DNA from: a virus
DNA length: 18,874 nucleotides
UHGV virus genome: UHGV-0311022
Reading direction: 5' to 3' (one strand)
The notes under the pieces are model-generated. The model did no database searches, was not told the origin of the DNA, and was given only the letters and a program-made list of their open reading frames with translations. The position numbers and the translations under genes are program-made. Each line of letters opens with the position of its first letter. Positions within the stretch are counted from its first letter, which is position 1. Shown in pieces: positions 18,367 through 18,866 of the stretch.

Positions 18367-18475
18367 CCGTCCACATGCAGGGAATTCGCAATGTCCGGCG
18401 AAAATGGCATCGTAAATGAAGCATGTAATCGCGCACGGGAAAAATATGGATTTCCAAAAATCTGAATATTCTCCG
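18367..18475. repeat. Inverted repeat X (109 bp); partner X' at 18609-18717
   Basis: rc(18367-18475) matches 18609-18717 with a single mismatch (checked base by base). Confidence 0.9.
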
Positions 18476-18608
18476 ATAAAAAAAAACGGGACCACGGCCA
18501 GTCCCGATGTAATGAGTTTTAGGGTATTAGTTTGTTATCATAGTTAGCGTGCTAAGTATGCCATATCAGGCTGATTAGTGAAGTGATGTTGTTCGCATTT
18601 TTGCACGG
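18476..18608. repeat. Segment Y (133 bp); diverged inverted copy Y' at 18735-18866
   Basis: rc(Y) aligns to 18735-18866 with about 8 mismatches and a shorter T-run. Overall order is X-Y-X'-spacer-Y', the same interleaved topology as at 5502-5825. Confidence 0.85.
18478..18506 (-). terminator. Intrinsic terminator inside Y (terminates leftward transcription)
   Basis: Minus-strand reading: CGGGAC-TGGCCGTG-GTCCCG hairpin (6 bp stem) followed by 9 T. Confidence 0.65.
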
Positions 18609-18717
18609 CGGAGAATATTCAGATTTTTGGAAATCCATATTTTTCCCGTGCGCGATTACATGCTTCATTTACGATGCTATTTTCGCCGGACATTGCGAAT
18701 TCCCTGCATGTGGACGG
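18609..18717. repeat. Inverted repeat X' (109 bp), partner of X
   Basis: See X. Immediately follows segment Y and is followed by a 17-bp spacer (18718-18734). Confidence 0.9.
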
Positions 18718-18734
18718 TTTTTGTAAACAGAGCA

Positions 18735-18866
18735 GCCGTGCAAAAATGCGAACAACATCACTTCACTAATCAACCTGACATGGCATACTTAGCACGCTAA
18801 CTATGATAACAAACTAATACCCTAAAACTCATGGTTCCGGGACTGGTCGTGGTCCCGTTTTTTTAT
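18735..18866. repeat. Segment Y' (inverted, diverged copy of Y)
   Basis: See Y. The window ends 8 bp after this copy. Confidence 0.85.
18838..18864 (+). terminator. Intrinsic terminator inside Y' (terminates rightward transcription)
   Basis: Plus-strand reading: CGGGAC-TGGTCGTG-GTCCCG hairpin followed by 7 T. Confidence 0.65.

What the first reader, a model, noticed from the sequence alone, without database searches (positions are those of the whole stretch)
18367..18866. Second interleaved inverted-repeat structure (X-Y-X'-spacer-Y') carrying two divergent intrinsic terminators
A 109-bp inverted-repeat pair (one mismatch) brackets a 133-bp segment Y. A diverged inverted copy of Y follows 17 bp after X'. 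The topology (P-Q-P'-Q') is the same unusual interleaved arrangement as at 5502-5825, so the same process may have acted twice in this element; here it looks older because Y and Y' have drifted. Y and Y' each contain a strong hairpin-plus-T-run terminator, pointing left and right respectively, so the structure can terminate transcripts arising inside it in both directions. That would suit a pair of short divergent RNAs or an insulator between the tail genes and whatever lies to the right. Homologous recombination between X and X' would invert Y and flip its terminator. The window ends 8 bp after Y', so the right-hand context is unknown.
Basis: seen in the sequence. Interest (0 to 1): 0.55.

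Follow-up and report, generated by a model that had tools for sequence, protein, structure and literature searches.

The report
Inverted-insertion scar in prophage terminator module
The interleaved inverted repeats are real, but they are a private 259-bp piece of a neighbouring prophage module pasted in backwards (a forward-reverse-forward copying scar, or possibly an amplification or assembly artefact), not a purpose-built RNA or insulator element.

Summary
In detail: X 18367-18475 / X' 18609-18717 (1 mismatch), Y 18476-18608 / Y' 18735-18866 (94%), a 17-bp spacer, and two outward-pointing hairpin-plus-T-run terminators. The window is an E. coli Stx-like prophage, 99.9% identical to strain 23CRST047 except at this site and at 5502-5825. 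X is the 3' end of a ykgJ-like pseudogene. Y' is its 3' UTR and terminator, abutting the stop codon of a DUF4376 tail-fibre pseudogene. Relatives carry flank-X-Y'. The window carries an extra inverted 259 bp between X and Y'. All 608 bp rebuild with zero mismatches from two natural loci. The Y/Y' differences are therefore two existing alleles, not drift. Site 5502-5825 rebuilds the same way and splits a 2783-aa gene. Both sites match template-switch type "3-1-4-2" of the four-point model. All four new junctions are blunt and absent from 5,426 complete E. coli genomes and three contig collections. I read the structure as a fresh copying scar, probably made in the cell. An in-vitro or assembly origin is not excluded. 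The main predicted side effect is a new terminator facing the late operon. Interest is low to moderate.

The parts
18267..18366 (.). A-type flank: the non-coding stretch upstream of the 541-aa late gene (start codon at 18266, minus strand). It joins X at an old illegitimate junction.
   Evidence: 18267-18475 is 100% identical to ten independent loci, L004-L013. Relative to ES5 this junction carries a 45-bp deletion between ACCG repeats.
18367..18475 (+). X: the 3' end of a ykgJ-like pseudogene (A allele). The stop codon TGA is at 18463-18465 and 10 nt follow it.
   Evidence: RefSeq annotates the homologous stretch as 'YkgJ family cysteine cluster protein, incomplete'. 18368-18449 is 79% identical to K-12 ykgJ.
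18476..18608 (-). Y: an inverted copy of the ykgJ-like 3' UTR plus terminator (A allele, 'Ya'). This is the first part of the 259-bp inverted patch.
   Evidence: The reverse complement equals the 133 nt that follow X in L005, with 0 mismatches and including T9+AT.
18478..18506 (-). An intrinsic terminator (8-pair stem, T9) that now faces the leftward late operon, about 210 nt upstream of the 541-aa gene.
   Evidence: Terminator scan. In the native locus L005 the only such terminator is antisense to the late genes.
18572..18677 (.). The interval inside the patch where the sequence changes from A allele to B allele. This is a homologous exchange in a 106-bp stretch that is identical in both loci.
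   Evidence: The last difference from the B allele is at 18571. The first difference from the A allele is at 18678.
18609..18717 (-). X': an inverted ykgJ-like 3' end (B allele, marked by the SNP at 18678).
   Evidence: 18609-18734 equals L015 4985-5110 (NMBU-W12E19) with 0 mismatches.
18718..18734 (-). Spacer: 17 further nt of ykgJ-like coding sequence. These exist only in B-type loci and are deleted from the resident A-type copy.
   Evidence: Alignments. Exact match to L015.
18735..18866 (+). Y': the ykgJ-like 3' UTR plus terminator in native orientation (B allele, 'Yb'). The terminator stem is 18838-18857 and the T7 run is 18858-18864.
   Evidence: 18735-18874 equals the reverse complement of L015 4846-4985 at 140/140. 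Terminator scan.
18867..18874 (-). The last 8 nt (including the TGA stop) of a DUF4376-domain tail-fibre pseudogene that converges on Y'. The window ends here.
   Evidence: Inferred from homology to the annotated CDS at L015 4638-4853 and L003 24485-24700.
18475..18476 (.). Junction J1 (X | inverted Y). It is new, blunt and shows 0 bp of microhomology.
   Evidence: Matches in complete genomes break exactly at this point. It is absent from genome, viral and metagenome contig collections.
18734..18735 (.). Junction J3 (spacer | Y'). It is new and blunt, with at most 1 bp (G) shared.
   Evidence: Matches in complete genomes break exactly at this point. It is absent from genome and viral contig collections.
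5502..5825 (.). Sister event. The layout is P 5502-5544, Q 5545-5625, inverted 77-bp spacer 5626-5702, P' 5703-5745, Q' 5746-5825.
   Evidence: Window 5400-5923 equals L003[11400..11544] + rc(L003[11502..11702]) + L003[11623..11800], with 0 mismatches. It is absent from the 425 complete genomes that hold the locus.
1482..9956 (-). A giant polyvalent protein gene (LPD5/LPD1/LPD38/MuF_C domains) split by the sister event into a 1409-aa ORF and a 1340-aa ORF.
   Evidence: Pfam scan. The relative has one CDS of 2783 aa. ORF1409 is native residues 1-1404 plus 5 new residues, and ORF1340 is native residues 1444-2783.

Best explanation
The structure is a mutational scar, not a device.

Native state: this prophage family carries one module between a DUF4376 tail-fibre pseudogene and the 541-aa late gene. 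The module is X, the last ~100 nt of a ykgJ-like pseudogene, followed by Y', its 133-nt 3' UTR ending in an intrinsic terminator. The terminator stops ykgJ-sense transcripts from running antisense into the tail-fibre gene.

What differs here: 259 bp have been written in backwards exactly between X and Y'. The order is copy forward to the end of X, jump to the opposite strand just past the terminator, copy back through Y and X and 17 nt further, then jump back to the start of Y' and continue. The reversed tract overlaps both flanks. Two interleaved inverted repeats (X/X' and Y/Y') and two outward-facing terminators follow automatically. This is event type '3-1-4-2' of the four-point template-switch model, with points 1 and 4 coinciding.

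Two loci contributed. The reversed tract changes, within a 106-bp identical stretch, from the resident A-type allele to the allele of a second, lambda-like prophage end (B-type). The sequence then continues on B.

The same kind of event, 12.7 kb away, inverted 77 bp of a giant gene and duplicated 43 and 81 bp of its flanks.

Most likely origin (inferred): both scars arose in the cell during one error-prone, recombination-dependent replication episode between the two prophages.

Predicted effects (inferred):
- A canonical terminator now faces the leftward late operon ahead of the 541-aa gene. This should be polar unless late transcription is antiterminated.
- A 109-bp inverted repeat could flip or destabilise Y.
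- The giant gene is split.
For: Shown:
- The closest genome (23CRST047) is colinear at 99.9% except at the two sites, and each site is forward-reverse-forward.
- Both sites reconstruct exactly with zero mismatches, site 2 from A-type L005 plus B-type L015.
- Ten independent loci encoding the identical 541-aa protein have the simple flank-X-Y' arrangement, with a 342-bp intergenic region.
- The spacer and the 18678 SNP exist as a natural allele in NMBU-W12E19, a strain that also carries an A-type prophage.
- The native locus has a terminator only antisense to the late genes. The window adds one in the sense direction.
- The ungapped 99.9% identity elsewhere, the absence of N bases and the unbroken passage through both sites argue that the rearranged form is the consensus of the sequenced DNA.

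Inferred:
- The in-vivo origin.
- A single episode producing both scars.
- Polarity on the downstream late genes.
Against: - All four new junctions show 0-1 bp of microhomology. Polymerase re-priming usually leaves some.
- Two fresh events of a rare type within 13 kb of an otherwise 99.9% identical sequence is what an artefact would also look like.
- Neither event is found in 5,426 complete E. coli genomes or in the genome, viral and metagenome contig collections. Independent confirmation is therefore lacking.
- The window ends 8 nt after the structure.
- Reported 3-1-4-2 events are tens of bp long and use a single locus.
- No reads are available.
Confidence: 0.55

Rival explanations
1. Same geometry, but made outside the cell. 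One route is strand switching by a displacing polymerase during whole-genome amplification (MDA-type inverted chimeras), possibly between co-amplified A-type and B-type templates. Another is some other library or assembly chimera that reached the consensus.
For: - In MDA, more than 85% of rearrangements are inverted sequences formed within the same branched molecule (PMC1855051).
- There are four inverted junctions in 18.9 kb.
- Both events are perfectly fresh and private.
- One event breaks a gene that is intact in hundreds of genomes.
- The window stops 8 nt beyond the structure.
- The allele mix of two loci would be easy to obtain in a mixed template pool.
Against: - Over 70% of MDA junctions show 2-21 nt of complementarity. 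Here it is 0-1 nt.
- A de Bruijn or consensus assembler cannot invent junction words. All four junctions and the A/B hybrid tract must therefore be present in reads, and as the dominant form, because the sequence runs through both sites without a break.
- Most public assemblies are not made from amplified DNA.
Confidence: 0.3
2. A functional element: a bidirectional terminator or insulator between tail-gene modules, or a pair of short divergent RNAs ending at 18478 (minus) and 18864 (plus).
For: - Two canonical terminators point outwards.
- Weak promoter-like sites (9 of 12 matches) lie inside Y and Y' and point at them.
- The single Y' module is conserved in about 88 genomes.
Against: - The doubled arrangement exists in no other sequence searched.
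- Every part is an exact copy of ordinary alleles, so nothing has been shaped by selection.
- Rfam gives no family at gathering score.
- The promoter-like count equals the shuffle expectation (3 found against 2.5).
- The extra terminator faces into the late operon, which is a cost and not insulation.
Confidence: 0.05
3. An inversion made by two staggered double-strand breaks. The overhangs are filled in and the segment is rejoined backwards, which also leaves inverted duplications at both ends.
For: The site at 5502-5825 has exactly that layout: a 77-bp inverted core flanked by inverted duplications of 43 and 81 bp. The blunt junctions fit end-joining.
Against: - At 18367-18866 the core has zero length, so the excised 'segment' would have no duplex part.
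- The inverted tract carries 17 nt and an allele that the resident copy lacks.
- From established knowledge, E. coli has no Ku/LigD end-joining pathway.
Confidence: 0.04
4. A programmed invertible switch (Gin/Cin/Pin-type or shufflon-type) or a MITE-like mobile element sitting next to the tail-fibre genes.
For: Inverted repeats lie next to tail-fibre genes, where phage invertible segments are known to occur.
Against: - No recombinase is annotated in the homologous 18.5 kb of the relative, and none appears among the window ORFs scanned.
- Site-specific inversion is conservative and does not duplicate 109-133 bp.
- There are no terminal inverted repeats with target duplication, and no dispersed copies.
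Confidence: 0.03

Closest known systems
Template-switch mutation, four-point model type '3-1-4-2' (Loytynoja & Goldman 2017, PMC5453318)
   Same: The structure is forward copy to point 1, reverse-complement copy from point 2 back to point 3, and forward copy from point 4, with the order 3<1<=4<2 on the reference. The outcome is two inverted repeats around an inverted spacer. Both window sites reconstruct exactly under this scheme.
   Different: - The reversed tracts are 201 and 259 bp, not tens of bp.
- At site 2, points 1 and 4 coincide.
- At site 2 the tract is a hybrid of two loci that lie 1.68 Mb apart in a reference strain.
- The junctions show no microhomology.
Quasipalindrome-associated template switching in E. 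coli (Ripley 1982; Dutra & Lovett 2006, as cited in PMC5453318)
   Same: Same organism and the same idea: the nascent strand copies the opposite strand for a short stretch.
   Different: The classic mechanism perfects a pre-existing imperfect inverted repeat. The native sequences here contain no such repeat.
MDA inverted chimeras (Lasken & Stockwell 2007, PMC1855051)
   Same: Inverted joins between nearby positions of the same locus, occurring at roughly this density.
   Different: These are usually single junctions with 2-21 nt of complementarity, and they are minority molecules. Here there are paired switch-and-return junctions, they are blunt, and they sit in the consensus.
ykgJ-derived sequence block in Stx and lambda-like prophages, the 'attB-in-PP_2' region (Nakamura et al. 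2021, PMC8112680)
   Same: X belongs to the same captured ykgJ-like block found at prophage ends and inside Stx phages. B-type loci (L002, L015) sit at prophage-prophage or prophage-chromosome borders.
   Different: The window keeps only the part matching K-12 ykgJ 1370-1451 of L014. The upstream part, where the 96-bp att sequence is described, is absent. Y has no K-12 counterpart.
Phage invertible tail-fibre segments (Mu G / P1 C / e14 P) and shufflons
   Same: Inverted repeats beside tail-fibre genes.
   Different: There is no invertase and no alternative fibre cassettes. The repeats are duplicated pseudogene and UTR sequence, not crossover sites.

Membership tests
Four-point template-switch event, type 3-1-4-2 | The derived sequence equals F1 (reference up to point 1) + the reverse complement of reference 3..2 + F3 (reference from point 4). 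| tested here: met
   Exact string identity holds for window 5400-5923 from L003, and for window 18267-18874 from L005 plus L015.
Four-point template-switch event, type 3-1-4-2 | The order of the points on the reference is 3 < 1 < 4 < 2, so the reversed fragment overlaps both 1 and 4. | tested here: met
   Site 1 has 11502 < 11544 < 11622 < 11702 in L003. Site 2 has 24244 (minus 17) < 24352 = 24352 < 24482 (plus 3).
Four-point template-switch event, type 3-1-4-2 | A single nearby template, meaning the same fork and the same locus. | tested here: not met
   This holds at site 1. At site 2 the tract and the right arm carry the allele of a second locus.
Four-point template-switch event, type 3-1-4-2 | The event arose during DNA replication in the organism. 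| not testable with these tools
   This needs reads from the source sample or PCR on the source DNA.
Intrinsic (rho-independent) terminator | A G+C-rich stem-loop followed directly by a T run on the transcribed strand. | tested here: met
   Each copy has an 8-pair stem with 5 G-C pairs and a 4-nt loop. One is followed by T9 (minus strand) and the other by T7 (plus strand).
Intrinsic (rho-independent) terminator | Transcripts actually end there. | not testable with these tools
   No RNA data are available.
Site-specific invertible segment (Gin/Hin/Cin/Pin or shufflon) | A serine or tyrosine recombinase gene adjacent to the segment. | tested here: not met
   No such domain appears in the eight window ORFs scanned. 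None is annotated among the CDS of the homologous region of L003.
Site-specific invertible segment (Gin/Hin/Cin/Pin or shufflon) | Conservative exchange at short crossover sites, without duplication of flanking sequence. | tested here: not met
   Relative to the native locus, 109 and 133 bp are duplicated.
MITE-like element | Many dispersed copies with terminal inverted repeats and target-site duplications. | tested here: not met
   X and Y occur only in the ykgJ/DUF4376 context, at a median of 1-2 places per genome and in 88-89 of 5,426 genomes. There is no other copy in the window.
Known small-RNA family | A match to a curated covariance model at its gathering score. | tested here: not met
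   There are no matches at gathering score in the whole window. Only sub-threshold hairpin-driven hits appear in 18200-18874.
attB-in-PP_2 secondary attachment site (Nakamura 2021) | [quoted passage not shown] | tested here: inconclusive
   The window matches only 82 bp near the 3' end of K-12 ykgJ. The published 96-bp sequence is held only as a figure image and could not be aligned.

The most novel reading that the evidence does not exclude
Both scars are real and come from one recombination-dependent replication episode. In this reading, a broken end in the lambda-like (B) prophage invaded the homologous ykgJ/terminator module of the Stx-like (A) prophage. Synthesis then switched strands or templates at least five times within 13 kb. 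The episode fused two prophages, planted a terminator in front of the late genes, and split a 2783-aa polyvalent protein gene into two ORFs. That would be a natural bacterial example of long (over 200 bp), multi-locus '3-1-4-2' template switching, a small-scale analogue of replication-based complex rearrangement.
Probability: 0.3. Interest if true: 0.5.

Novelty: new member of a known kind. Interest (0 to 1): 0.25.

Why it matters
If the structure is real, it gives a clean, base-exact natural example of how a single copying error can do three things in a bacterial mobile element. It can create long hairpin-forming inverted repeats, duplicate and re-aim a terminator, and split a giant gene. It would also show that two prophages in one cell can serve as templates for each other. 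If it is an artefact, it is a useful warning. Interleaved inverted repeats of the P-Q-P'-Q' kind in assemblies should be checked against close relatives before any function is proposed. In either case it is not a new regulatory element.

Tried and rejected
- Drift between Y and Y' is rejected. Both are exact natural alleles.
- Local duplication of the resident copy is rejected. The 17-nt spacer and the 18678 SNP are absent from the resident A-type copy, which shares its 45-bp deletion with L003-L013.
- I looked for microhomology at the four junctions and found none beyond 1 bp.
- A wrongly oriented small contig joined during scaffolding was considered. The overlaps are unequal (43/81 and 126/133). 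Nothing in the native sequence would end a contig at 18475, because the A and B alleles stay identical for a further 38 nt. There are no N bases. I judge this unlikely but cannot exclude it.
- A path error in a de Bruijn graph is rejected, because junction words must exist in reads.
- RNA-mediated insertion was considered because the patch starts 11 nt after the terminator stem, near where a ykgJ-like transcript would end. It cannot explain site 1, which lies inside a coding region with no terminator.
- Integrase-mediated exchange at attB-in-PP_2 was considered. The att part of the ykgJ-like block is missing here, and integrase exchange is conservative.
- The search for the source or for a second occurrence was negative throughout. 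This covered exact junction words in the genome, viral and metagenome contig collections. It also covered exact-protein look-ups of both split ORFs and of two junction-spanning ORFs.
- The left-end test of a k=141 unitig idea was inconclusive.
- The Rfam search gave nothing.

Full report
**1. Observation**

The repeats are present as described. The repeat finder reports two inverted pairs in 18000-18874. After trimming to the high-identity cores the parts are:
- X 18367-18475 and X' 18609-18717, 109 nt with one mismatch;
- Y 18476-18608 and Y' 18735-18866, with eight substitutions and a 2-nt difference in T-run length;
- a 17-nt spacer, 18718-18734.

As single-stranded DNA the region folds at -173.8 kcal/mol, against -62.6 +/- 4.9 for shuffles (z = -22.9). 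A pattern scan finds the two hairpin-plus-T-run sites, one on the minus strand (stem 18506..18487, T9) and one on the plus strand (stem 18838..18857, T7). The comparable structure at 5502-5825 is also real, and its arms are 100% identical. No other long repeat exists in the window, and X and Y have no further copy in it.

**2. Context**

The window is part of an E. coli prophage. On the minus strand it encodes a giant polyvalent protein (LPD5, LPD1, LPD38 and MuF_C domains), a tail tip fibre protein and a 541-aa protein, among others. Complete-genome relatives add Lom, Hok/Gef, an N4-gp56-type capsid protein, and tail fibre, Gp38 and DUF4376 genes to the right. The closest complete genome, strain 23CRST047 (locus L003), covers 98% of the window at 99.9% identity.

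**3. What X and Y are**

- In relatives, the stretch homologous to X is annotated as an incomplete 'YkgJ family cysteine cluster protein' pseudogene on the plus strand.
- 82 nt of X are 79% identical to K-12 ykgJ.
- The pseudogene's stop codon is at 18463-18465.
- Y' is the 133 nt that follow X. It ends in the terminator, whose T run lies next to the stop codon of a convergent DUF4376 tail-fibre pseudogene. The last 8 nt of the window are the end of that gene.
- A ykgJ-derived block in Stx and lambda-like prophages has been described as the 'attB-in-PP_2' region and its flanks (PMC8112680). The window retains only the distal 3' part of that block.

Two natural versions of the module exist.
- **A-type** sits inside Stx-like prophages as flank-X-Y'-DUF4376(-). 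It has a 45-bp deletion at the flank/X junction (L003-L013).
- **B-type** sits at the end of lambda-like prophages as DUF4376(+)-Y-X'-further ykgJ-like sequence (L002, L015).

**4. What differs in the window**

Against L003 the window is colinear except at two places, and each is a forward-reverse-forward patch. Ten independent loci that encode the identical 541-aa protein all have the simple 342-bp intergenic region, without the extra 259 bp.

The decisive result is exact reconstruction.
- Window 5400-5923 equals L003[11400..11544] + the reverse complement of L003[11502..11702] + L003[11623..11800].
- Window 18267-18874 equals four pieces:
  - the A-type flank+X;
  - the reverse complement of the 133 nt that follow X in A-type L005;
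  - L015[4985..5110];
  - the reverse complement of L015[4846..4985].
- Both reconstructions have zero mismatches.

The 259-bp patch (18476-18734) is therefore an inverted copy of spacer'-X-Y'. It changes from A allele to B allele somewhere in the identical stretch 18572-18677. The right arm is B allele.

Strain NMBU-W12E19 holds the exact B allele. It also holds an A-type prophage that matches the window at 99.3%. The two modules lie in inverted orientation about 1.68 Mb apart.

The differences are allelic and the event is fresh.

**5. Geometry and mechanism**

Projected on the native sequence, the switch points are ordered 3<1<4<2 at site 1 and 3<1=4<2 at site 2. This is event type '3-1-4-2' of the four-point template-switch model. 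[quoted passage not shown] The 'unusual interleaved arrangement' is thus the automatic outcome of one switch-and-return copying error.

A staggered-break inversion model would give the same picture at site 1. It fails at site 2, where the core has zero length and the patch carries sequence the resident copy lacks.

Site-specific inversion is conservative and needs a recombinase. Neither condition holds.

All four new junctions are blunt, with 0-1 bp shared. That is atypical for polymerase re-priming and remains unexplained.

**6. Real or artefact**

The new junctions are absent from all 5,426 complete E. coli genomes. Matches break exactly at 18475|18476 and 18734|18735. None of the 425 genomes that hold site 1 has its arrangement. 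The junction words searched are also absent from one-genome-per-species contigs, IMG/VR viral contigs and JGI metagenome contigs. Exact-protein look-ups of the rearranged ORFs find nothing.

Points that fit an artefact:
- two fresh, rare events lie 12.7 kb apart in an otherwise 99.9% identical sequence;
- one of them breaks a gene that is intact in hundreds of genomes;
- MDA is known to give mostly inverted, intramolecular chimeras (PMC1855051).

Points that fit a real rearrangement:
- no assembler can invent junction words;
- the sequence has no N bases and no indels against relatives;
- it runs through both sites unbroken, so the rearranged form must be the dominant one in the data;
- MDA junctions usually show 2-21 nt of complementarity.

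My split is about 0.55 for a real in-vivo rearrangement and about 0.3 for an in-vitro or assembly origin. The remainder goes to the other models. A single recombination-dependent replication episode between the A and B modules, with several template switches in its first 13 kb, would explain three things at once: the A/B hybrid, the two scars and their freshness. That single-episode model is inference.

**7. Consequences (inferred)**

- In the native locus the only terminator is antisense to the late genes. The inverted copy adds a canonical terminator in the sense direction of the leftward late operon, about 210 nt upstream of the 541-aa gene. From established knowledge of lambdoid phages, Q-modified late transcription reads through terminators. 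The polarity may therefore matter mainly outside lytic growth.
- The 109-bp X/X' repeat could in principle flip Y by homologous recombination. This is untested.
- Site 1 truncates the 2783-aa protein after residue 1404 and leaves a second ORF equal to residues 1444-2783.

**8. Verdict**

The age, the insulator or small-RNA idea and the MITE idea are not supported. The structure is a new instance of a known kind of mutation, or of its in-vitro mimic, sitting in a known prophage module. It is not a new functional element.

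Noticed in passing
window 5502-5825 (and ORFs 1482-5504, 5727-9956): The sister rearrangement splits a single 2783-aa LPD5/LPD1/LPD38/MuF_C polyvalent protein gene into a 1409-aa and a 1340-aa ORF. Native residues 1405-1443 are now encoded backwards. 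It reconstructs exactly from the relative L003.
   Followed up: yes
window 18355-18370 compared with L001 6012-6075: The resident flank/X junction lacks 45 bp that ES5 has. The deletion lies between two ACCG repeats. B-type copies lack a further 4 bp (CCGC). These are older small deletions shared by many A-type loci.
   Followed up: partly
window 18537-18564 (-) and 18780-18807 (+): A promoter-like site (ATGGCA, 16-nt gap, TATGAT; 9 of 12 matches) lies inside Y and Y', about 30 nt upstream of each terminator hairpin. It could give a ~50-60-nt RNA from the native Y' module. The count of such sites is no higher than in shuffles, and Rfam has no match.
   Followed up: partly
window 18734-18874: The last 141-mer of the window starts exactly at 18734, the last base before junction J3. 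A node-centred de Bruijn unitig with k=141 would end this way if another path in the sample shared Y'. However, an intact B locus in the same sample should also have broken the sequence near 18572-18594. The hint is therefore ambiguous.
   Followed up: partly
L015 (NZ_CP042892.1 1682575-1692684) and NZ_CP042892.1 11315-30029: One sequenced strain (NMBU-W12E19) carries both donor modules, in inverted orientation about 1.68 Mb apart. The B-type copy sits at the end of a lambda-like prophage next to the chromosomal pao genes, near the native ykgJ neighbourhood.
   Followed up: partly
window 1-120: The first ~116 nt (the end of an ead/Ea22-like gene) are shared at 94-97% with many other prophages and with ~90-113-kb plasmids of E. 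coli. Similarity then stops. This is a typical mosaic boundary at the left end of the window.
   Followed up: no
window about 13217-13357 (by homology to L003 19094-19234): Relatives annotate a Hok/Gef toxin gene here, beside lom. The Rfam scan at gathering score reported no antisense (Sok-like) RNA anywhere in the window.
   Followed up: no
L004 3652-3792 and L001 6221-6361: Some A-type loci carry mosaic Y' alleles (A-like 5' part, B-like hairpin part). Ordinary homologous exchange between the A and B modules therefore happens in nature.
   Followed up: partly
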